Notes under the pieces: generated by a model
What the model saw: only the letters and a program-made list of their open reading frames with translations
Databases searched by the model: none
Told to the model about the DNA's origin: nothing
Assembly: GCA_030604855.1 (NCBI GenBank)
Contig: JAUVVC010000003.1
Span: 30,001 to 62,000, forward strand
Source of the DNA: Erysipelotrichaceae bacterium
Lineage (GTDB): Bacteria > Bacillota_I > Bacilli_A > Erysipelotrichales > Erysipelotrichaceae
Length of the DNA: 32,000 nt
Reading direction: 5' to 3'
Program-made: the position numbers and the translations under genes
In this document: piece by piece, positions 20,216 to 31,406 of the stretch
Layout of the letters: every line of letters begins with the position of its first letter
Position numbering within the stretch: the stretch's first letter is position 1

Positions 20216-20291
20216 GGACGCTTAGCTCAGTTGGGAGAGCACCTGCTTGACGTGCAGGGGGTCAGGGGTTCGAGTCCCTTAGCGTCCACCA
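20216..20291 (+). tRNA. tRNA-Val (anticodon GAC)
   Basis: Acceptor GGACGCT/AGCGTCC, anticodon loop TTGACGT, T arm GGGGTTCGAGTCCCT, encoded CCA. 76 nt. Confidence 0.9.
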
Positions 20292-20301
20292 TTTGTGTTT
20301 T

Positions 20302-20378
20302 GTGCCCGTGGCGCAATTGGATAGCGCATTTGATTCCGATTCAAAAGGCTGCAGGTTCAAGTCCTGTCGGGCGCACCA
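20302..20378 (+). tRNA. tRNA-Arg (anticodon CCG)
   Basis: Acceptor GTGCCCG/CGGGCGC, anticodon stem TTTGA/TCAAA with loop TTCCGAT, T loop GGTTCAAGTCC, CCA. 77 nt. Confidence 0.85.
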
Positions 20379-20381
20379 TTA

Positions 20382-20458
20382 CGGGACATAGCACAGCTTG
20401 GTAGTGCGCTTGCTTCGGGAGCAAGAGGTCGCGTGTTCAAATCACGTTGTCCCGACCA
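20382..20458 (+). tRNA. tRNA-Pro (anticodon CGG)
   Basis: Acceptor CGGGACA/TGTCCCG, anticodon stem CTTGC/GCAAG with loop TTCGGGA, T loop TGTTCAAATCA, CCA. 77 nt. Confidence 0.85.
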
Positions 20459-20462
20459 GAAC

Positions 20463-20538
20463 GGGGCTGTAGCTCAGCTGGAAGAGCACAACGCTGGCAG
20501 CGTTGGGGTCGAGGGTTCGAGTCCCTTCAGCTCCACCA
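20463..20538 (+). tRNA. tRNA-Ala (anticodon GGC)
   Basis: Acceptor GGGGCTG/CAGCTCC with the G3:U70 Ala identity pair, anticodon loop CTGGCAG, T loop GGTTCGAGTCC, CCA. 76 nt. Confidence 0.9.
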
Positions 20539-24983: not shown

Positions 24984-25059
24984 GCCGACTTAGCTCAACT
25001 GGTAGAGCAACTGAATCGTAATCAGTAGGTTGCGGGTTCAAGTCCTGTAGTCGGCACCA
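24984..25059 (+). tRNA. tRNA-Thr (anticodon CGT)
   Basis: Acceptor GCCGACT/AGTCGGC, anticodon stem ACTGA/TCAGT with loop ATCGTAA, T loop GGTTCAAGTCC, CCA. 76 nt. Confidence 0.9.
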
Positions 25060-25126
25060 TTTAACACTAAGAATGCCCTAATATGTAGCATATATATGGG
25101 GCATTTTGCATTTATGTAGAAAAAAC

Positions 25127-25160
25127 AACATAAGTAAAATAAGAATAAATTACTTATGTT
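25127..25160. repeat. perfect 11-bp inverted repeat
   Basis: AACATAAGTAA-12 nt-TTACTTATGTT, 68 nt after the tRNA-Thr end. Confidence 0.6.
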
Positions 25161-25317
25161 GAGCAATTAATAAGCTAGAAATCATCTGAAATAGCTTCAG
25201 TTTTCCAGAAGTTAAAATTTGTGGGTTAAAATAAAAATCTCGTTTTAAGTGAATTCACTTATATATTTAATAATATAAAAGAACCCTACACATTAAGTTT
25301 GTGTAAGATTCTTAAGG

Positions 25318-26580
25318 TTATTCATTCTCGATTATTATACTTAATTCTGGTTCGAGTCGGCTTATGACTCTAGTGACGAGTGCATTCCCCATCATGAAAT
25401 ATCTACGAGATTCTGGCATCCCTGTATTTGTCCAATTATCTGGAAAAGATTGCAAGCGCTCAGCTTCAATGGGTGTAATGAATCTAAGCCTACCGGTTAA
25501 GTGGTCTTCAATCACATGTGTACTACGATTTATACTTGACTCACTTGTAAGCATAGTTCTACCTGGTAAATCTAAACTATCAGGGAAGCCCATGCCGCCT
25601 TCGGAATAAAAATAGGAGTTACCATTAGAGTTGACACGCTTAATCTTCTTGCCATCTTTTAGGTACTTGAATTTCTCTATTTGCTTTTCAGTTAAGAAGT
25701 AGTTTGATAAATCAACGCCTTCTTCTCTAATTTCTGAAAGCGTAATGGGTTCTTCTGGGTTCGGAATAACTTTCTGAGTGAAAGCGACACCATCTACCAT
25801 TAGTCCAGAGTTTTCAAATAAGAAACTGAACTTTTCTGTCATTTGAACAGTATCGAGGTGTTCATTAAGGTTTACAGACTTAAGCTTGTTTTGTTGGCTC
25901 AAAGCAATATCTAATGGGAATGAAGAAGCAAGTAAGCTTCTGTTGAGCATAATGTCTTCTACCGTATAATCGTTCACCATTTGGTTGTATCTTAATTCCC
26001 TTCGCCAAGCGAAAATAAAGACGCGACGTCTTCTTTGTGCGCCACCATAATCGGCTGCATTAATGACTCGCCATTCCAGATTATAACCAAGGTCTGAAAA
26101 AGTTCTAAGCATTATTCCAAAATCTCTACCACGCTGAAGTGCTGGAGACTTTAACAGTCTATCTACATTTTCAAGTAAAACAAACGGAGTTGCTTTCGCT
26201 TCGAGGATATCTGTTATTTGCCAGAACAGAACTCCCTTTTTTCCTTCAATTCCTTTTTCGTTACTTTTTGTACGCGCAACAGAATAGTCTTGACATGGGA
26301 ATCCACCCACTAAGAGAGAATGGTCAGGAAGCAATTCTTTATTAACTAATGAAATGTCTTCATTGCTGTTAGGACCTGGATTATTAAACCGAGTTACATA
26401 ACACTGATATGCATGTTGAGATATTGTTGATGGTTCCCACTGGGAGGCCCATACGAAATCCCAGTTATTTCTTTCGATAGCTTTTCCGTTTTGGTCAAAG
26501 TTAGCAACATTGTTCAAACCAACTCGAAACCCACCTACTCCGGCAAAAAGCTCTATTACGGTTTTTTCCATTGTGTACAC
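25318..26580 (-). CDS. DNA (cytosine-5)-methyltransferase, M.Sau3AI-like
   Basis: C5-MTase motifs ELFAGVGGF (I), GGFPCQDYS (IV), LLENVDRLL (VI), QRRRRVFIF (VIII) and MGNALV (X). Long stretches recalled from M.Sau3AI are also present (WASQWEPS, GKKGVLFWQI, RGRDFGIML, EWRVINAADYG, RTMLTSESSINRSTH, PIEAERLQSFPDNWT). Confidence 0.9.
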   Translation of the reverse strand: MYTMEKTVIELFAGVGGFRVGLNNVANFDQNGKAIERNNWDFVWASQWEPSTISQHAYQCYVTRFNNPGPNSNEDISLVNKELLPDHSLLVGGFPCQDYSVARTKSNEKGIEGKKGVLFWQITDILEAKATPFVLLENVDRLLKSPALQRGRDFGIMLRTFSDLGYNLEWRVINAADYGGAQRRRRVFIFAWRRELRYNQMVNDYTVEDIMLNRSLLASSFPLDIALSQQNKLKSVNLNEHLDTVQMTEKFSFLFENSGLMVDGVAFTQKVIPNPEEPITLSEIREEGVDLSNYFLTEKQIEKFKYLKDGKKIKRVNSNGNSYFYSEGGMGFPDSLDLPGRTMLTSESSINRSTHVIEDHLTGRLRFITPIEAERLQSFPDNWTNTGMPESRRYFMMGNALVTRVISRLEPELSIIIENE

Positions 26581-26702
26581 TCTCCTAGTACTATTGTATA
26601 ATAATCGAAATGGGATTTTGGTTATTTTTACAATAAAAACTTCATTAATTATACAGCATTTCTTTTACTCAGAACAATAATTAAAACAGGGGGGATAAGG
26701 GT

Positions 26703-28151
26703 ATGAATGAGAGCATTTATCAGTCAAGAGAAGAACTGTTGGAAATAGCTAAGAGTGCAATCGGGGAAAGGATTGGGAAGTATGACACAAGAAACAGACT
26801 TATTCCTGGGAAGGGCAAAGGAAAGATTGGTTTAGTTATTGAGGAAGGCTTGTTTCATAGAAAAGCTGACTCTAGTCAAAAGCCTGATTTTGATAATCTC
26901 GGTATAGAGCTAAAAGTAACTGGTTATCAATGGAAGAACAACAATAAGAAAGTTTCAGCCAAAGAGAGACTCGTAATTACAATGCTGGACTATTTTAATG
27001 ATGTAAATAAAGAGTTTAGAAACAGTAATGTCTATCATAAAATCGCGAAAATGCTTCTAATGCTCTACGAGCACGAACTAGATAAAAATGAGGCTGATTT
27101 CATATTAACGAATTACTTCATGTATGAGTTCGAGAATATAAGTGAGTTGGATAAGAGAATAATTATTAGGGATTACGATAACATTATACAGAAGATTTTA
27201 GATAATCAGGCCCATGAAATTTCCGAAGGGGACACTCTGTATTTAGGGGCATGCACTAAAGGGGAAAATAGTGGCTCAACTGTTGTAGTCAATGGTATAG
27301 AAGTTATGAGGAGAGCTTTTGCATTGAAACAGTCGTATATGACTTACTTGATGCGCAGCAGCATTTTCAAAAACTGGGGGAACAAAGAATCGTTCATTAA
27401 AGATTTAAACTTACTTAAAAAGAATACTCTTGAGGAGCTCGTTTATAAATCGTTTGAGCCCTTCATCTCTAAGAGCCTTACAGAAATTGATTCGATGTTT
27501 AATACTCAAGTTGACAGAAATCCCAAACAATATTTGAAAAGTTATGTTTCTAGAATGTTAAATGTCAAAGATAAAAATCTTGAGAGTATTGATGAATTTT
27601 TAAAAGCTAACATTCAAGTTAAAACGATAAGACTTTCAAGAATTGGTGAAATTAAAGAGAGTATGTCTTTTCCTAATTTTGATTTCATTCAGTTATCTGA
27701 GGAGTCTTGGGAGGAGTCTGTTACACGAGATATGTTTGAAGTGAGTAAATTTCTCTTTGTTGTTTTTGATGAGGTTAATGATTCAAAAAAAGAGTATAAA
27801 TTAAGAAAAGTCTTGTTCTGGAATATGCCTACATCTATATTGGATGGAGAAGTTCGTGAAGTTTGGGAATCAACCAAACAGATTCTAAATTCCGAAATCC
27901 GAGTAAGTGTTAAGAACAAAAGGTTTTTGAATAATTTCCCCTCATCTAAAAACAATCCTGTAGCACATGTTAGACCCCACGGAGTAAATAGTCTTGATGT
28001 CTACGAACTACCTTCTACATGTAAGATTAGAGTTATGAGTAATGATGGAACGAAAGATATTGAAGACTTTATTAATCGTCATGTCTTCACTAAGCAAAGC
28101 TTTTGGCTAAATAATAAATACGTGCTAAGGGTGATTAATAACTTTAAATAG
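26703..28151 (+). CDS. type II restriction endonuclease, Sau3AI family (MutH-like catalytic domain; GATC expected)
   Basis: 482 aa. PDFDNLGIELKV fits the D...ExK MutH/Sau3AI site. Also has SAKERLVITMLDY, ISEGDTLYLGACTKGEN, RRAFALKQSYMTYL, ESMSFPNFDF, FLFVVF, AHVRPHG and TKQSFWLNNKY, which parallel Sau3AI as I recall it. Divergent from the MTase. Confidence 0.8.
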   Translation: MNESIYQSREELLEIAKSAIGERIGKYDTRNRLIPGKGKGKIGLVIEEGLFHRKADSSQKPDFDNLGIELKVTGYQWKNNNKKVSAKERLVITMLDYFNDVNKEFRNSNVYHKIAKMLLMLYEHELDKNEADFILTNYFMYEFENISELDKRIIIRDYDNIIQKILDNQAHEISEGDTLYLGACTKGENSGSTVVVNGIEVMRRAFALKQSYMTYLMRSSIFKNWGNKESFIKDLNLLKKNTLEELVYKSFEPFISKSLTEIDSMFNTQVDRNPKQYLKSYVSRMLNVKDKNLESIDEFLKANIQVKTIRLSRIGEIKESMSFPNFDFIQLSEESWEESVTRDMFEVSKFLFVVFDEVNDSKKEYKLRKVLFWNMPTSILDGEVREVWESTKQILNSEIRVSVKNKRFLNNFPSSKNNPVAHVRPHGVNSLDVYELPSTCKIRVMSNDGTKDIEDFINRHVFTKQSFWLNNKYVLRVINNFK

Positions 28152-28270
28152 CTGTGAAAATCCTAAATCAACTTATTTTCCAAAATAGTTATAAGCAGTG
28201 TAAGATGAATCTATACTGCTAATGTTCATATAGAACATCTCCCCTCAGCTCTTCGAGTTTCCAAGATTAA

Positions 28271-28292
28271 GCGCCCCATAATGGCGCTTTTT
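28271..28292 (+). terminator. rho-independent terminator
   Basis: GCGCC-ccataat-GGCGC followed by T5. Confidence 0.5.
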
Positions 28293-28353
28293 CTTTTCGT
28301 TATATTTTTATCTTTAAATGCATAGAATGGGGCATCACAAGGAGATTACGAAA

Positions 28354-28599
28354 GTGAAAAAAAGAAAACGAAGCGAAGTCCAAGGACCGCTCAGTTATGA
28401 CCAGGAAAAAGATTGTTTTACGATAGGAACACGAGAATTGAAGCATGGAACACCATTATTTGTATGTTTAGCCGTCGAAAAGGATGATTGAATGGTATAT
28501 GATTCGAGGATTAAAAAGTGTGAAAATGGGTGAGTTTTGGCGGATTTAGGCCGTCCAGCCGTCGATTTTCTCGGTCAGGTGTGTTTTTTACGTAGCTAA
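28354..28599 (+). CDS. hypothetical 81-codon protein, open only if TGA is read through (2 in-frame TGA)
   Basis: AAGGAG 28339-28344 lies 9 nt before GTG 28354. The frame runs to TAA 28597-28599 with TGA at 28489-28491 and 28531-28533 (...VEKDD*MVYDSRIKKCENG*VLADLGRPAVDF...). A strong terminator follows. Confidence 0.45.
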
Positions 28600-28606
28600 T
28601 GTTGCC

Positions 28607-28630
28607 AAAAGCGCAGAAGTGCGCTTTTTC
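28607..28630 (+). terminator. rho-independent terminator
   Basis: AAAAGCGCA-gaag-TGCGCTTTT (9 bp) followed by a T run. Confidence 0.65.
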
Positions 28631-29245
28631 TTTATGTAGTTTTTTTGTTTAGTTATGAAGCGTTGCGCACGAAACTATACTAAGAATGACTTTCGAAACC
28701 CGTCGAGCCGGGAAAAAGGCGCCACGGCGCCTTTCCCCCACATCTCCGGATATCGAAAATCATTGAAAAACGTAGACGGAAAGCGGGTTTAGTTTACTTT
28801 TCCTTGAACGTTATCTTCCGGTTAAGCTCCGCCGCTTCGTTTGTCGTTTTTCCGCTTCGCTTCAAAACACGAAGGCGTGCTCGCTTAACCGGTGCTCGAG
28901 CCGGGCCGAATGAATTCGGCTCTCGGCTTCCTATCGAGCGCCTTCCCCCAAAGTTCCACCGGTCCACGATAACGTGGACGCGCTGGTTGTTCGCTTGGAG
29001 GTCGTGGAACATCGCCGTAGGTTTACTCCGCTCGTGTGTCCGCCATTATGCGGACGCCACGTCGCCATGTGTGCGCAACGTTGCGCCGATGATGCCGTCT
29101 TCAGGTGTCGACTATAACGTCGACGACCTTACGACTTTGAGGAGCTTATGTTTCGCTAATCCAGGGGAAGCCCTAGGTGAAACCCACACGAAGTCCGAGA
29201 GTTTCGCCGTTAAATTTTCTTTTAAAAATCTGTTTGAAATCAGAT
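28631..29245. other. ORF-free, GC-rich, hairpin-dense region: candidate large structured RNA or replication/transfer origin
   Basis: No credible ORF in any frame, even with TGA read as sense. Contains a composite 75-nt hairpin closed by CCGGTTAAGC/GCTTAACCGG (28818-28892). GC-clamped stem-loops lie at 28715-28734, 28905-28920, 28962-28979, 29036-29057, 29073-29086 and 29103-29129. A module is duplicated at 28703-28740 and 28896-28950. Confidence 0.4.
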
Positions 29246-29258
29246 AGGAGGTCCAGAT

Positions 29259-29399
29259 ATGGAACACGCTTTGAATGGAGTCGACCTCATTTCGCTGCTG
29301 CTCTTTGGCGGTTCGAGATTAACTCAGGATGAAAAGAATGAACTTTTGGAAGTGTATTTGGAAAGCACAAACGTGCGGGAGGATTCTGAGAATGAGTAG
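29259..29399 (+). CDS. hypothetical 46-aa protein
   Basis: AGGAGG 29245-29250 lies 8 nt before ATG 29259. Ends in TAG. Confidence 0.5.
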   Translation: MEHALNGVDLISLLLFGGSRLTQDEKNELLEVYLESTNVREDSENE

Positions 29400-29427
29400 A
29401 GCTGGAGATTGAGAGATTAAAAAATGG

Positions 29428-29934
29428 ATGGATTCCGACATCAAGGCGGCGCAGTTGTTTAATTCTATTTGCAACGTTTCAGAGGAAGACGCCATGGCCT
29501 ACGCTGGTATCAGCGCAACGCGCTTAAAGACACTGGCGAACATCCATTACCTTGAGCGGAAGATTGATAAAAAAGGAAACTACTATTACCGGACGACCAT
29601 AGAAGGACGAAAAGAATTCGAGAAGAGGTCCGGAATAAGAGGCTATTTTTCAAACAGCTACGCACACGATAAGGCCCTATATGATGTCTATACGAGTTTA
29701 AGCGAAGAAGAGCAGAACAGCTGAATGACGGAACGCGAACAACGTCAATACGCCGAAGACCACGGGTATGAAATTGAGGATACGTCGGTGTGCGACGGAG
29801 CGTATCGCGACAGTGAAACAGGTGAGATGGTCTATGTGGAAATTATTACATCTGACTATACCGATAAAATGAAAGAAGCCAAGGCTAAATATGCTGAGGT
29901 TATGGGAGGCCGATATGACCAGCATTCAATCTAA
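29428..29934 (+). CDS. hypothetical wHTH-like protein, 168 codons with one in-frame TGA (replication-relaxation-like layout, tentative)
   Basis: Track ORFs 29428-29724 and 29725-29934 are in the same frame, separated only by TGA 29722-29724 (...SLSEEEQNS*MTEREQRQY...). N-terminal ...ISATRLKTLANIHYLERKIDKKGNYYYRTTIEGRKEF looks like a winged helix. The C-terminus has D...E motifs (CDGAYRD...VYVEIITSDY). Ends in TAA. Confidence 0.45.
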
Positions 29935-31339
29935 GAATACAAAATACGACAAGGATGCCGTAAAGAGACTCGTGGAAGCGAAAAGAGGGGGATTGCTCGT
30001 TGAACAACTCTATGAAGCGATACCCGAAAATGAACGTCCTTCTCGAAGCTATTTCTTGGAATTCTTAAAAAATATCAAAGGGGTTTACACGAGCCAATAT
30101 GATGTCTTTAAAAATCGATTCTTCGTCTCGACCCTTCACAATAAAGATTTATTAGCCAAACGAAGATTACTTGTTATGCTCGCAGCGTGAGAGAAAGAGA
30201 ATGGACGTCCAGCGAGCTGGTTCGTCGAACCCGGCGGATTGCCCAATAAATACAAAGAACTCATTCTTAGAATGGCGGAGAGACCCGGACCGTATCGAAA
30301 CGGAGGAAGCGTGAATCTCGAGGAGAGCTTCATCTGGATGTCCTATTTTGCCGGACAACAAAAAATGGCACTCAAGAAAAGAAACACCCCAAAGCCAAAG
30401 CCCGAAATGATTCTGGAGTTGGGCGACGGAATGGTGATAGATTTAAGCGATGATAATGAGGTTATTTCGCTCGATAACGAAAACAAAGTTTATATTGGGA
30501 AAAACAGCAAATGGGGAAACCCTTTCGAGAGCGGTGGCATATGGACCGATACCGAATGTAAAGAACTTTACCCCGCTCACTTCTGGAGTAGCAATCTATA
30601 CGACGAACTCGATGAGCTCATCAATAAGAGACTTTACGTCCACACAGGCGAGGATGAGTTCCACGGCCAATTCCTACGTGACATGATTAAAGAGAAGGCG
30701 GCGGGGAACAAGCCCGGACCGACCATTCCCCCGATACATCTCTACAACCTTCACCGAAGAAAGATATACCTTGAAATCGTTAAAGATAAAGAGAACCCTA
30801 AAAAAATAGGGAAGCTAGTCTTCCATATGTTCGATGTTGAGGATGACCTGACTTTTGAGAAAGTCATTGCTTGTCTAAAGACCATTTTCGAATTTATGAC
30901 CTACCATGAGATTTTAAGACCGTTCTCAATCAACATCTACACCTGAAATGAGAAGAAGCGGGACCTTTACAAAGAACGTTTCCGGATTTCTCTTAAAGCG
31001 ATACTTCGAAAGAAATTCCATACGGCCGGACTCAATGTCGATGCCACATTCCGAAGATACTTGAAAGACATCTACGACGAGGCCTTTAAAGGCTATAATT
31101 TCATTGATTTAAATATCGACAGATTCTTATACGAGAAGGGGAAAGAATATTGAACGAAGGGGAACAACCTAAACCTACTGGAATATGCTGGTGAAGACTG
31201 GCGAGACCACGTAAAAAAGGACCCAAACAAGGCGAAATTCGAGGATTTAAGCAATCAGGCGAGTATTAACCTGTCCCAGTCCGAAAACGAGGCAAAAAAC
31301 GCCTTAAATGAGGATGACGAATATTTCGATTTAGGGTAA
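29915..31339 (+). CDS. composite 474-codon reading frame with three in-frame TGA; central DUF4326-like motif
   Basis: GGGAGG lies 6 nt before ATG 29915. One frame stays free of TAA/TAG until TAA 31337-31339, with TGA at 30188, 30944 and 31151. The two segments after 30946 contain no ATG at all. The motif VYIGKNSKWGNPF resembles the DUF4326 signature. This may be more than one gene. Confidence 0.45.
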
Positions 31340-31376
31340 AATAGAAGAGACTTCCCCCCGAAGTTATAAGTAGTTG

Positions 31377-31406
31377 AGAAGCGCAATAATAGGCGCTTTT
31401 CTTTTT
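31377..31406 (+). terminator. rho-independent terminator
   Basis: AAGCGC-aataatag-GCGCTT followed by TTCTTTTT. Confidence 0.6.

What the first reader, a model, noticed from the sequence alone, without database searches (positions are those of the whole stretch)
28631..29245. 0.6-kb ORF-free, GC-rich, hairpin-dense region: candidate large structured RNA or origin
Between a strong terminator (28607-28630) and the SD of the next gene lie about 615 nt that are visibly more GC-rich than anything else in the window. I found no believable ORF, since all open frames are Arg/Cys/Ser-rich and overlap each other on both strands. The region is packed with GC-clamped stem-loops whose loops are AT-only. 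These are AAAGGCGCC-ac-GGCGCCTTT (28715-28734), GCCGAAT-ga-ATTCGGC (28905-28920), GTCCACG-ataa-CGTGGAC (28962-28979), GTCCGC-cattat-GCGGAC (29038-29055), GCGCAACGTTGCGC (29073-29086) and AGGT-GTCGAC-tataac-GTCGAC-g-ACCT (29103-29129). A long-range 10-bp pairing CCGGTTAAGC (28818-28827) / GCTTAACCGG (28883-28892), extended by CGCC..TTCG / CGAA GGCG, closes a 75-nt composite hairpin. A module TCGAGCCGGG-hairpin-GCGCCTT(T)CCCCCA occurs twice (28703-28740 and 28896-28950). Large ornate RNAs of unknown function are known to live in prophages near tRNA genes. Alternatively this is an oriT, ori or ssDNA initiation region for the adjacent wHTH protein. I cannot assign it to a known class from memory.
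Basis: partly seen in the sequence, partly recalled or inferred. Interest (0 to 1): 0.65.

Follow-up and report, generated by a model that had tools for sequence, protein, structure and literature searches.

The report
Conserved hairpin array in mobile element
This 0.6-kb gene-free stretch is a real, evolutionarily conserved array of DNA hairpins in a little-known family of integrated mobile elements; it folds best on the strand opposite the neighbouring genes, so it most likely works as single-stranded DNA when the element moves or replicates, not as a known RNA.

Summary
It matches no Rfam family and no phage or plasmid record.

The region belongs to the backbone of a rare tRNA-integrated mobile element. 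I found it in 10 sequences from 5 lineages, one of them an Erysipelotrichaceae MAG. The order is always the same: small ORF, terminator, ~80-nt imperfect hairpin A, array of GC hairpins, "CACAC", then a small-gene operon that includes a DUF4326 gene in the window's clade.

Compensatory changes support the hairpins: 31 of 72 core pairs, against 2-7 in slid controls. Substitutions show no 3-periodicity.

The core helices are almost purely Watson-Crick. Hairpins A and B, and the total folding energy, favour the minus strand in all 10 sequences. That strand is antisense to the operon.

Best reading (about 0.4): a cis element that acts as single-stranded DNA on the transferred or displaced strand. 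It would resemble an Frpo/ssi ssDNA promoter, an sso priming site, or a roadblock to strand conversion.

Rivals are a minus-strand ncRNA, a canT-like plus-strand leader RNA, and an oriT. The transferred strand, the relaxase and any transcript are unknown.

The parts
28269..28289 (+). Intrinsic terminator T1. It lies downstream of the RM cargo and upstream of the small ORF.
   Evidence: Also found in L004 and L006.
28353..28491 (+). Small backbone ORF (GTG start, AAGGAG Shine-Dalgarno, 46 aa) that precedes the array in every lineage.
   Evidence: Sequence. A 46-aa gene is called at the same place in L014 (3535-3675), with 74% nt identity over 70 nt. Similar small ORFs occur in L018 and L017.
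28607..28628 (+). Intrinsic terminator T2 (AAAAGCGCA-gaag-TGCGCTTTT), the left boundary of the element. It is preceded by a conserved AGGTGTG.
   Evidence: Equivalent terminators are in L004, L007, L014, L018 and L017.
28653..28681 (+). Weak sigma-70-like site, TTATGA-17-TATACT (8/12). The overlapping invariant AACTATAYT also reads TATAGT on the minus strand.
   Evidence: Sites in the same position occur in L004 (9/12), L007, L011 and L014. L017 has TTGACA-18-TAAAAA (read).
28685..28764 (-). Hairpin A: about 80 nt, imperfect, 39-nt arms, with a GGCGCC-ac-GGCGCC tip. It is much more stable on the minus strand.
   Evidence: It is 10-16 kcal/mol more stable on the minus strand in 9 sequences and about 6-7 kcal/mol in L017. 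Summed over the 10 sequences, the folded hairpin has 29 G.U pairs on the minus strand and 2 on the plus strand. Hairpins of the same size and position occur in L014 3902-3983, L018 ~797-866 and L017 ~498-568.
28765..28777 (.). Conserved unpaired motif GAAAAACGTAGAC (minus strand GTCTACGTTTTTC), next to the base of hairpin A.
   Evidence: Invariant columns in A1. L017 has AACGTAAAC at the same place.
28818..28892 (-). Hairpin B: a 10-bp closing helix CCGGTTAAGC/GCTTAACCGG. Its interior is replaced by different hairpins in other lineages.
   Evidence: 3 pairs with compensatory change. It is 1.6-14 kcal/mol more stable on the minus strand.
28894..28939 (.). Hairpin C: a nested helix with the tip GGCCGAA-tgaa-TTCGGC.
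   Evidence: 8 pairs with compensatory change. L014 has GGGTCAAA-taaa-TTTGACC in the same context.
28957..28985 (.). Hairpin D (H1): CACCGGTCCACG-ataa-CGTGGACGCGCTG.
   Evidence: Five pairs show compensatory change. L008 has GTTGGCG/CGCCAAC here.
29038..29055 (.). Hairpin E (H2): GTCCGC-cattat-GCGGAC.
   Evidence: Three pairs show compensatory change.
29103..29129 (.). Hairpin F (H3): AGGTGTCGAC-tataac-GTCGACGACCT.
   Evidence: L014 has GGGTGTCGGC-agga-GCCGACGACCC.
29155..29194 (.). Hairpin G. It includes the conserved CACAC(G) motif at 29185-29189.
   Evidence: TTCACAC(G) lies at the same distal position in L014, L018 and L017.
29259..30946 (+). Downstream operon: a 46-aa ORF, a wHTH protein (29428-29724), an acidic 69-aa protein, a 99-aa protein and a DUF4326 protein. 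It ends at a terminator at 31376-31401.
   Evidence: DUF4326 is a predicted ADP-ribose-derivative phosphatase found in virus-host conflict contexts (PMC9503650).

Best explanation
The region is a cis-acting element of an integrative mobile element, and it works when the minus strand is single-stranded DNA.

After nicking, one strand is displaced or transferred. Three things suggest this is the minus strand: an analogy with NikA-type relaxosomes, the orientation of the downstream genes, and the strand that actually folds.

On that strand, hairpin A and the array of GC-clamped hairpins snap back. I propose three roles for them.
- They recruit host RNA polymerase as an Frpo/ssi-like single-strand promoter and priming site. 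Transcription and primer extension would run rightwards over the already-entered template into the 46aa-wHTH-69aa-99aa-DUF4326 operon.
- They serve as a single-strand origin.
- They slow complementary-strand synthesis coming from the later-entering side, which would keep the operon single-stranded and expressed for longer.

What is shown: the hairpins are real, they are under selection, and folding is biased to the minus strand.
What is inferred: that the molecule is ssDNA, which strand is transferred, and that the hairpins act as promoter, primer site or roadblock.
For: 1. Hairpin pairing is under selection. In the seven alignable sequences, 31 of 72 strand-independent core pairs carry compensatory double changes, against 2-7 in slid controls. 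95% of cells are paired, against 32-45% in slid controls (full folds).

2. The same architecture recurs in three further lineages that have no BLAST similarity in the array: L014, L018 and L017. A covariance model built on H1-H3 gives weak hits at the right place and on the right strand.

3. The minus strand folds better in 10 of 10 sequences. After correcting for composition, the excess is -22, -4, -27, -28 and -25 kcal/mol in the five lineages. In hairpin A, G.T/G.U pairs number 29 on the minus strand and 2 on the plus strand.

4. The core helices are almost purely Watson-Crick: 474 WC cells, 4 + 4 wobble cells and 20 other mismatches. Wobble is not enriched on either strand. The loops I inspected are mostly AT-rich and, in the window's clade, not GNRA/UNCG. 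Hairpin number and sequence vary between lineages. This looks like a generic array of stable hairpins, not a precise RNA tertiary fold.

5. No sigma-70-like site of 8/12 or better recurs on the operon side of the minus strand; the only two isolated 8/12 hits there (L018 1320, L007 1220) are not conserved. There is no Rfam match either.

6. The context fits.
- The element has an integrase next to a tRNA in L004 and L006, a NikA-like RHH protein, and a VirB6/TrbL_3-like protein. Homologs of that protein sit in Gram-positive T4SS clusters.
- The array lies directly upstream of plus-sense genes, which include a DUF4326 gene. The minus strand is therefore their template, as leading-region genes require (PMC11541004).
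- Two terminators insulate the array from upstream transcription.

7. In 3 of 5 lineages a -35-like hexamer lies in the 3' arm of hairpin A, with a -10-like hexamer just beyond its base (8/12). This is the geometry an Frpo-type fold-back promoter needs.

8. There are precedents.
- Frpo stem-loops act as ssDNA promoters (PMC9849209).
- An ssDNA promoter stem-loop acts as a roadblock to strand conversion (bioRxiv 10.64898/2026.01.09.698686).
- The sso of pBAA1/ICEBs1 has three stem-loops, and its structure matters more than its sequence (PMC4595007).
Against: - No relaxase, VirB4 or VirD4 was recognised in any locus. Conjugation, oriT and the identity of the transferred strand are therefore all inferred. 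In ICEBs1-type elements the sense strand is the one transferred.
- No canonical -35/-10 pair is reconstituted in all lineages. The best are 8/12, and L014 and L017 have none.
- The array is 550-750 nt with 7-10 hairpins. That is larger than any described Frpo (50-350 nt) or sso (170-340 nt).
- Conserved G.T wobbles in hairpin A are more natural in RNA than in DNA.
- A weak plus-strand promoter-like site sits between T2 and hairpin A in 4 of 5 lineages. The plus strand is therefore probably transcribed through the array in the double-stranded state.
- Only about 10 sequences exist. Seven of them fall into two close clades.
Confidence: 0.4

Rival explanations
1. It is a large (about 550-750 nt) structured non-coding RNA transcribed from the minus strand, antisense to the operon's upstream region. 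Such an RNA could regulate the operon or act as a stable functional RNA of the element.
For: - Folding is biased to the minus strand in all 10 sequences.
- Hairpin A has G.U pairs on that strand only.
- The size, GC enrichment and compensatory changes resemble those of large bacterial ncRNAs.
- In L018 and L014, a small GC hairpin followed by a T-run on the minus strand precedes hairpin A.
- T2 is palindromic and could terminate transcription in both directions.
Against: - No conserved minus-strand promoter lies on the operon side in any lineage.
- The core helices show no wobble enrichment.
- The array shows no recurring GNRA/UNCG tetraloop on the minus strand.
- Outside a few short motifs, junctions and loops are poorly conserved, and the number of hairpins varies between lineages.
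- Nothing in Rfam matches.
- Hairpin A is not a terminator: its U-run is lost in L006.
Confidence: 0.22
2. It is a long structured 5' leader of the plus-strand operon mRNA. It would act in cis, for example as a processive antiterminator like Tn916 canT or pLS20 conAn2, or as a translational or stability regulator.
For: - It lies just upstream of the first backbone operon.
- Weak plus-strand promoter-like sites sit between T2 and hairpin A in 4 of 5 lineages. In L017 there is no room for a promoter between the array and the Shine-Dalgarno sequence.
- canT is a 341-452 nt region with multiple stem-loops in an ICE (PMC11658703).
- One helix at 29192-29215 has G.U pairs on the plus strand only.
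Against: - The plus strand is the less stable strand in 10 of 10 sequences. In L017 it folds no better than shuffled sequence (z = -0.6, against -5.8 for the minus strand).
- On the plus strand, hairpin A carries A.C mismatches at the positions where the minus strand has G.U.
- The strong terminators lie upstream of the array, not downstream of it. The operon is only about 2.1 kb long and ends at a terminator. A processive antiterminator therefore has little to do.
Confidence: 0.13
3. It is the element's origin of transfer (oriT) or a rolling-circle double-strand origin. On this view the hairpins on the nicked strand bind the relaxase or Rep protein and accessory proteins, and the nick falls in one of the conserved unpaired motifs.
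For: - It is the only GC-rich, hairpin-dense non-coding region in the element.
- No comparable inverted repeats lie upstream of the NikA-like gene.
- Hairpin A is strand-specific and is flanked by invariant unpaired motifs: GTCTACGTTTTT and TATAGTTT on the minus strand. From memory, CTACG recalls the pMV158 RepB nick sequence TACTACG/AC. This is a lead, not a test.
Against: - oriT normally adjoins the gene for the accessory protein or relaxase. Here the NikA-like gene is about 3.5 kb away.
- The flanking motifs are not conserved in L014 and L018.
- Seven to ten hairpins over 550-750 nt far exceeds typical oriT or dso cores.
- No relaxase or Rep protein was identified.
Confidence: 0.12

Closest known systems
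Frpo / ssi single-stranded DNA promoters in the leading regions of enterobacterial conjugative plasmids (F, ColIb-P9)
   Same: - It is a non-coding stem-loop element directly upstream of co-oriented early or anti-defence genes.
- The folding strand is the template strand of those genes.
- It is functionally plausible as promoter, primer site and conversion roadblock.
(PMC11541004, PMC9849209, bioRxiv 2026.01.09.698686)
   Different: - There is no sequence similarity: plasmid BLAST found no match.
- No canonical -35/-10 pair is conserved in the stem.
- It is a multi-hairpin array of 550-750 nt, not one long stem-loop of up to 350 nt.
- The host is Firmicutes-like.
- The transferred strand and the leading region are not established.
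Single-strand origins (sso) of rolling-circle plasmids and ICEBs1 sso1 (the pBAA1/pTA1060 type)
   Same: - It is a strand-specific, non-coding set of stem-loops.
- Pairing matters more than primary sequence. The pBAA1 sso has three functional stem-loops (PMC4595007).
- The window has three similar hairpins at 28962, 29038 and 29107.
   Different: - It is two to three times larger than known sso elements.
- It has no similarity to any plasmid record.
- The ssoA CS-6-like hexamer TAGCGA at 29154-29159 (minus strand) is not conserved in clade 2.
- It folds on the strand antisense to the genes, whereas ICEBs1 displaces the sense strand (my recollection of ICEBs1 polarity, not checked in the paper read).
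Intergenic region of Ff filamentous phages (f1/M13). This comparison rests on my own knowledge.
   Same: Both are roughly 500-nt ORF-free regions that act as ssDNA. Both have a ~78-80-nt imperfect hairpin A at one end, followed by an array of hairpins. In Ff phages these include an RNA-polymerase-recognised complementary-strand origin.
   Different: - In Ff phages the folded strand is the sense (viral) strand.
- No inovirus hallmark gene, such as the pI/Zot ATPase, was found here.
- There is no sequence similarity.
Tn916 canT and pLS20 conAn2, cis-acting antiterminator RNAs of Gram-positive conjugative elements
   Same: Both are large (341-452 nt) multi-stem-loop non-coding regions in an integrative element, lying near insulating terminators (PMC11658703).
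   Different: - canT acts in the sense orientation, upstream of the terminators it overrides.
- Here the structure favours the antisense strand and the terminators lie upstream of the array.
Large bacterial ncRNAs found near tRNAs and prophages (ROOL, GOLLD, OLE, HEARO, raiA)
   Same: The size range, the GC enrichment in a low-GC genome and the mobile-element context are similar.
   Different: - No covariance-model match was found, even at E<=10.
- There are few conserved junction or loop nucleotides.
- Wobble pairs are not enriched in the core helices.

Membership tests
Frpo/ssi ssDNA promoter | The single-stranded stem-loop reconstitutes canonical -35 (TTGACA) and -10 (TATAAT) boxes. | tested here: inconclusive
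   The best minus-strand sites score 8/12. The -35-like hexamer lies in the 3' arm of hairpin A and the -10-like hexamer just beyond its base: TCGACG-18-TAGTAT in the window, TTCGAA-17-AATAAT in L007/L011, and CTGAAT-16-TATTAT in L018. No such site is found in L014, L017, L004, L006 or L003.
Frpo/ssi ssDNA promoter | Sequence similarity to known Frpo/ssi elements. | tested here: not met
   blastn (word size 11) of 28500-29300 against 72,556 plasmid records found no match.
Frpo/ssi ssDNA promoter | It lies in the leading region, on the transferred strand, upstream of genes for which that strand is the template. | not testable with these tools
   The gene orientation is consistent: the operon is plus-sense and the folding strand is the minus strand. 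But nic, oriT and the relaxase are unidentified.
Single-strand origin (ssoA/ssoT/ssoU type) | A strand-specific, non-coding region with extensive secondary structure in which pairing is conserved. | tested here: met
   Compensatory changes are shown. The minus-strand bias is shown. The absence of coding signal is shown.
Single-strand origin (ssoA/ssoT/ssoU type) | Family-specific conserved sequences (RS_B and CS-6 for ssoA) or similarity to known sso elements. | tested here: not met
   No plasmid match was found. The TAGCGA hexamer is present only in the window's clade and is not conserved.
Single-strand origin (ssoA/ssoT/ssoU type) | Orientation-dependent conversion of ssDNA to dsDNA. | not testable with these tools
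   This needs the pHP13-type assay used in PMC4595007.
Rfam large ncRNAs (ROOL, GOLLD, OLE, HEARO, raiA and others) | A covariance-model match at or near the family's gathering score. | tested here: not met
   In the window, only tRNAs reach gathering score. The best hit in the region is 19 bits against a 46-bit gathering score, at E = 1.3. L014 and L018 are also negative.
canT/conAn2-type processive antiterminator RNA | A sense-strand RNA structure located upstream of the terminators it overrides. | tested here: not met
   The structure favours the antisense strand. T1 and T2 lie upstream of the array. The operon is about 2.1 kb and ends at a terminator.
Group II intron domain V (considered because of GAGCCGGGCCGAATGAATTCGGCTCTCGGCTTC) | A conserved 34-nt D5 with an AGC triad, a 2-nt bulge and a GNRA loop, detected by the Intron_gpII model. 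| tested here: not met
   There is no Rfam hit at E<=10. The loop is UGAA. The GAGCCG sequence is not conserved in L007 and L011.
Protein-coding gene or pseudogene | An ORF kept open in the homologs, and 3-periodic substitution. | tested here: not met
   mod-3 counts are uniform (p 0.5-0.9), and the ORFs are broken differently in each homolog.

The most novel reading that the evidence does not exclude
The array may be a previously undescribed class of 'entry module' in Gram-positive integrative elements. It would be a 0.55-0.75 kb multi-hairpin single-stranded-DNA device, unrelated in sequence to enterobacterial Frpo/ssi. It would both fire early transcription of a counter-defence operon from the incoming strand and hold that operon single-stranded by blocking complementary-strand synthesis. 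Alternatively, and equally unexcluded, it is a new large antisense structured RNA unique to this dark-matter element family.
Probability: 0.3. Interest if true: 0.8.

Novelty: new variant of a known kind. Interest (0 to 1): 0.6.

Why it matters
Single-strand promoters and conversion roadblocks have been shown experimentally only in enterobacterial plasmids. Searches for Frpo-like sequences in a Streptococcus pneumoniae conjugative-element island, a Gram-positive example, found nothing similar (PMC11541004).

This array gives a concrete candidate to test for how Gram-positive elements express genes or prime DNA synthesis on entering ssDNA. It is conserved, supported by compensatory changes, strand-biased, and sits directly upstream of a putative counter-defence operon.

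It also marks a family of integrative elements whose proteins are almost all unannotated. The method is useful too: here strand-asymmetric folding plus Watson-Crick-only compensatory change distinguishes a candidate DNA structure from a classical RNA.

If it proves to be an RNA instead, it would be a new large ncRNA class.

Tried and rejected
- Rfam at gathering score and at E<=10, on the window, L014 and L018: nothing found.
- blastn against phages and plasmids: no match.
- Pattern scans of viral contigs, twice: none.
- Scans of genome and metagenome contigs with ACTATAYTNNNAATGAYTTTCGAAA: one true homolog (L011) and two chance hits (L010 in a Proteiniphilum MAG, and L012).
- Coding region or pseudogene: rejected.
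- Hairpin A as a minus-strand terminator: rejected, because the U-run is lost in L006.
- Group II intron domain V resemblance of hairpin C: rejected, because there is no model hit and the sequence is not conserved.
- Double-stranded palindromic operators for the wHTH protein: rejected as the sole explanation. Stems change sequence while keeping their pairing (L008 H1 has GTTGGCG/CGCCAAC), the interior of hairpin B is replaced wholesale, and folding is strand-asymmetric.
- ssoA CS-6 motif: not conserved.
- The dinucleotide-shuffle script timed out. I replaced it with mononucleotide shuffles.
- Pfam, NCBIfam, PHROGs and PDB sequence searches of backbone proteins gave almost nothing beyond NikA-like, LRR_5, DUF4326 and TrbL_3. 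The type of mobile element could therefore not be settled.
- The intergenic region upstream of the NikA-like gene shows no convincing oriT-like GC hairpins.
Full report
**1.

The repeat finder recovers several of them independently:
- the 10-bp long-range pair (28818-28827 / 28883-28892);
- the duplicated TCGAGCCGGG and TTCCCCCA;
- a family of three similar hairpins, GTCNNC-loop-GNNGAC, at 28962, 29038 and 29107;
- a 39-nt-arm imperfect inverted repeat centred on GGCGCC-ac-GGCGCC (28685-28764), which I call hairpin A.

The 400-nt bin 28801-29200 is 56.5% GC. This is the maximum in the window; the flanks are 33-45%.

A strong terminator lies at 28607-28628, and a second one at 28269-28289.

Both strands fold far better than dinucleotide shuffles. 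With RNA parameters the z-scores are -6.3 (+) and -11.5 (-). With DNA parameters they are -6.0 and -7.4.

**2. It is not a known RNA and not coding**

At gathering score, Rfam finds only the five tRNAs in the window. At E<=10 the region gives only noise.

blastn against the phage and plasmid collections finds nothing.

The 147-aa ORF has no Pfam hit. It is interrupted differently in each homolog. Substitutions are evenly spread over the three codon positions (p 0.5-0.9), whereas the adjacent wHTH gene is strongly 3-periodic (p 6e-7 and 8e-5).

**3. Genomic context**

The region lies in an island next to tRNA-Thr (24984-25059). Reading rightwards, the island contains:
- a Dcm-type methylase and a MutH/Sau3AI-like endonuclease;
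- terminator T1, a 46-aa ORF and terminator T2;
- the array;
- an operon of a 46-aa ORF, a wHTH protein, an acidic 69-aa protein, a 99-aa protein and a DUF4326 protein, ending at a terminator at 31376-31401.

L001 is identical to the window over their 6,982-nt overlap (100% in the stretches compared) and extends it. There the next genes are minus-strand LRR_5 genes, a NikA-like RHH gene and a ~642-aa protein.

That protein is TrbL_3/VirB6-like. Its homologs sit between the VirB4-like ATPase and the cell-wall hydrolase in Gram-positive T4SS clusters.

The relatives L004 and L006 start with a tRNA 3' end and a tyrosine integrase, and L004 carries a different RM cargo. The array is therefore backbone of an integrative mobile element, and the RM systems are cargo.

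The window's copy lacks the integrase.

No relaxase, VirB4 or VirD4 was recognised anywhere. The mode of transfer is therefore inferred, not shown.

**4. Homologs**

The wHTH protein and the 69-aa protein each have only a handful of relatives among 5.8 billion proteins. Their contigs gave six further copies of the array:
- L004 at 91% identity;
- L006 and L003 at ~86-87%;
- L008 at 83%;
- a divergent clade, L007/L011, at ~68-74% and only partly alignable by BLAST.

Homologs of the VirB6-like protein led to three more distant lineages:
- L014, from a JGI metagenome;
- L018, from a JGI metagenome;
- L017, from an Erysipelotrichaceae MAG, GCA_054814245.1.

These three share no BLAST similarity with the window's array, but they have the same layout. 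In order:
- a small ORF;
- AGGTGTG;
- a terminator;
- an AT-rich spacer;
- an ~70-86-nt imperfect hairpin with a GC tip;
- an array of GC hairpins, 450-650 nt long;
- TTCACAC(G);
- the Shine-Dalgarno sequence of a small-gene operon.

Individual hairpins are recognisably the same with compensatory changes. For example, H3 is AGGTGTCGAC-tataac-GTCGACGACCT in the window and GGGTGTCGGC-agga-GCCGACGACCC in L014. The tip of hairpin C is GGCCGAA-tgaa-TTCGGC in the window and GGGTCAAA-taaa-TTTGACC in L014.

A covariance model of the H1-H3 segment hits L018 1051-1213 (E ~0.007) and L014 4170-4309 (E ~6e-4 in 3 kb). Both hits are on the plus strand at the expected place. This is weak but consistent support.

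**5. The structure is under selection**

On the seven alignable sequences, the RNAalifold consensus of either strand shows 39-50 pairs with compensatory double changes, against 4-12 in slid controls.

Restricting the count to the 72 pairs common to both strands' consensus gives stronger figures:
- 31 pairs have double changes, against 2-7 in slid controls;
- 95.2% of cells are paired, against 32-45%;
- 0 of 500 shuffles reach the observed value.

The interior of hairpin B is replaced by different hairpins in different lineages.

Because stems change sequence while keeping their pairing, the inverted repeats are not simply palindromic binding sites for one protein.

**6. Which strand, and which nucleic acid**

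The 72 core pairs are almost purely Watson-Crick:

| Cell type | Count |
|---|---|
| Watson-Crick | 474 |
| G.T on the plus strand | 4 |
| G.T on the minus strand | 4 |
| Other mismatches | 20 |

Wobble is not enriched on either strand. The hairpin loops listed are mostly AT-rich and not GNRA/UNCG. This is unlike typical structured RNAs.

Hairpins A and B are nevertheless strongly asymmetric. Hairpin A is 10-16 kcal/mol more stable on the minus strand in nine sequences, and about 6-7 kcal/mol in L017. Summed over the ten sequences, the folded hairpin has 29 G.U pairs on the minus strand and 2 on the plus strand.

The whole array folds better on the minus strand in 10 of 10 sequences, with both RNA and DNA parameters.

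After subtracting the mean of mononucleotide shuffles, the minus-strand excess is -22, -4, -27, -28 and -25 kcal/mol in the five lineages. In L017 the plus strand is no better than random (z = -0.6, against -5.8 for the minus strand).

The functional single strand is therefore the minus strand, which is antisense to all the flanking backbone genes.

**7. Transcription signals**

No sigma-70-like site of 8/12 or better recurs on the operon side of the minus strand in any lineage; the only two isolated 8/12 hits there (L018 1320, L007 1220) are not conserved.

Weak plus-strand sites lie between T2 and hairpin A in 4 of 5 lineages. The window has TTATGA-17-TATACT. L017 has TTGACA-18-TAAAAA (read).

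On the minus strand, 3 of 5 lineages have a -35-like hexamer in the 3' arm of hairpin A and a -10-like hexamer just past its base (8/12). In a fold-back, that arm would serve as the non-template strand. Transcription would then leave the hairpin rightwards towards the operon, which is the Frpo geometry. The matches are too weak to count as evidence on their own.

Hairpin A is not a terminator, because its U-run is lost in L006.

**8. Interpretation**

The minus-strand bias, the missing minus-strand promoter, the Watson-Crick-only modular hairpins and the mobile-element context together point to one reading. The array most likely acts as single-stranded DNA on the strand that is displaced or transferred.

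Suppose nic lies near the NikA-like gene and that gene enters last, as in NikA/MOB_P systems. (This is my own knowledge, and an analogy only.) Then several things follow.
- The transferred strand is the minus strand.
- The operon enters before the array.
- The array, once inside, can fold.
- The minus strand is the operon's template. This is the arrangement described for leading-region genes and Frpo promoters (PMC11541004; PMC9849209).

DUF4326 is a predicted ADP-ribose-derivative phosphatase from virus-host conflict systems (PMC9503650). That fits a counter-defence operon expressed early.

A recent preprint shows that an F-plasmid ssDNA promoter stem-loop also blocks complementary-strand synthesis and so prolongs early expression. 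An array of very stable hairpins, placed exactly where the incoming polymerase would reach the operon, would do the same. That would explain why the array is so much larger than a promoter needs to be.

The sso literature shows that three stem-loops can suffice and that structure can matter more than sequence (PMC4595007).

I put this reading at about 0.4.

**9. Rivals**

- **Minus-strand structured ncRNA (0.22).** It explains the G.U bias naturally. It lacks a promoter, wobble in the core helices and conserved junctions.
- **canT/conAn2-like plus-strand leader (0.13).** It fits the position and the weak plus-strand promoter. The strand bias contradicts it, and the terminators lie upstream of the array, not downstream (PMC11658703).
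- **oriT or dso (0.12).** It fits the strand-specific hairpin flanked by invariant unpaired motifs, and the lack of hairpins upstream of the NikA-like gene. It does not fit the size of the array or the poor conservation of those motifs in L014 and L018.

**10. Verdict**

This is a real, conserved, previously uncatalogued structured element specific to a rare and largely unannotated family of Firmicutes integrative elements. The best-supported mechanism is an ssDNA-active promoter, priming site or roadblock module, which would be a new variant of a known kind. The nucleic acid and the transferred strand remain to be shown by experiment.

Noticed in passing
window 28353-28491 (+), flanked by terminators at 28269-28289 and 28607-28628: A small ORF (GTG start, AAGGAG Shine-Dalgarno, 46 aa: KKRKRSEVQGPLSYDQEKDCFTIGTRELKHGTPLFVCLAVEKDD) is bracketed by two intrinsic terminators. 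It is conserved as a called 46-aa gene in L014 (3535-3675). Analogous small ORFs occur in L018 and L017. Its function is unknown.
   Followed up: partly
window 28475-28628: A promoter-like site, TCGAAA-17-TATGAT (TTGAAA-17-TACGAT in L004), is followed by a conserved AGGTGTG and terminator T2. This could be a ~120-nt small RNA or an attenuator just upstream of the array.
   Followed up: no
window 25318-28151; L004 1750-3904; L014 1056-3206: The cargo slot between the integrase and the backbone holds different restriction-modification systems. The window and L006 have a Dcm-type methylase plus a MutH/Sau3AI-like endonuclease. L004 and L014 have a Dam-type (MethyltransfD12) methylase plus a DUF6996/6997/7226 protein.
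   Followed up: partly
window 24984-25318: The window's copy of the element abuts tRNA-Thr(CGT) but lacks the tyrosine integrase that L004 and L006 carry next to a tRNA 3' end. Homology with L006 resumes only at window ~25261. This copy may therefore be immobilised.
   Followed up: partly
window 20216-20538: A tight array of four tRNA genes, Val(GAC), Arg(CCG), Pro(CGG) and Ala(GGC), lies upstream of the island.
   Followed up: no
L014 4380-4528: Three tandemly spaced hairpins share the apical motif GGC-TTYA-GCC on variable lower stems (GTAGGG/CCCTAC, GTATGG/CCATAC, GTGGC/GCCAC). This is a lineage-specific counterpart of the window's three GTCNNC-loop-GNNGAC hairpins. It suggests a hairpin-binding factor that co-evolves with the array.
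   Followed up: no
L017 ~566-590 and L018 ~866-890: An identical 13-mer, CCCGTGGGACGGG (a small GC hairpin with a GGGA loop), lies immediately after hairpin A in two otherwise very divergent lineages. In L018 it is followed by T5 on the minus strand, and in L017 by T4 on the plus strand.
   Followed up: no
L001 6790-7569; L004 7416-8931; L014 7402-9517; L017 5821-8214; L018 4410-9028: Minus-strand genes sit between the operon and the NikA-like gene in every lineage, most of them BspA-type LRR_5 surface-protein genes (L017 7711-8214 was not scanned against Pfam; L018 6274-6705 and 8285-9028 have no precomputed hit on record). In these stretches they are the only backbone genes on that strand.
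   Followed up: no
L001 8282-10747 compared with L004 9818-12283 and L014 10001-12511: In the window's lineage the ~820-aa VirB6/TrbL_3-like gene is split into 169-aa and 642-aa ORFs. In L017 it is split into 343-aa and 485-aa ORFs. This may be a frameshift or a genuine two-gene form. No VirB4, VirD4 or relaxase gene was seen in up to 20 kb of any lineage.
   Followed up: partly
window 29725-29934: The 69-aa protein is strongly acidic, with 17 D/E against 8 K/R. Small DNA-mimic anti-restriction proteins look like this. It has no family hit.
   Followed up: no
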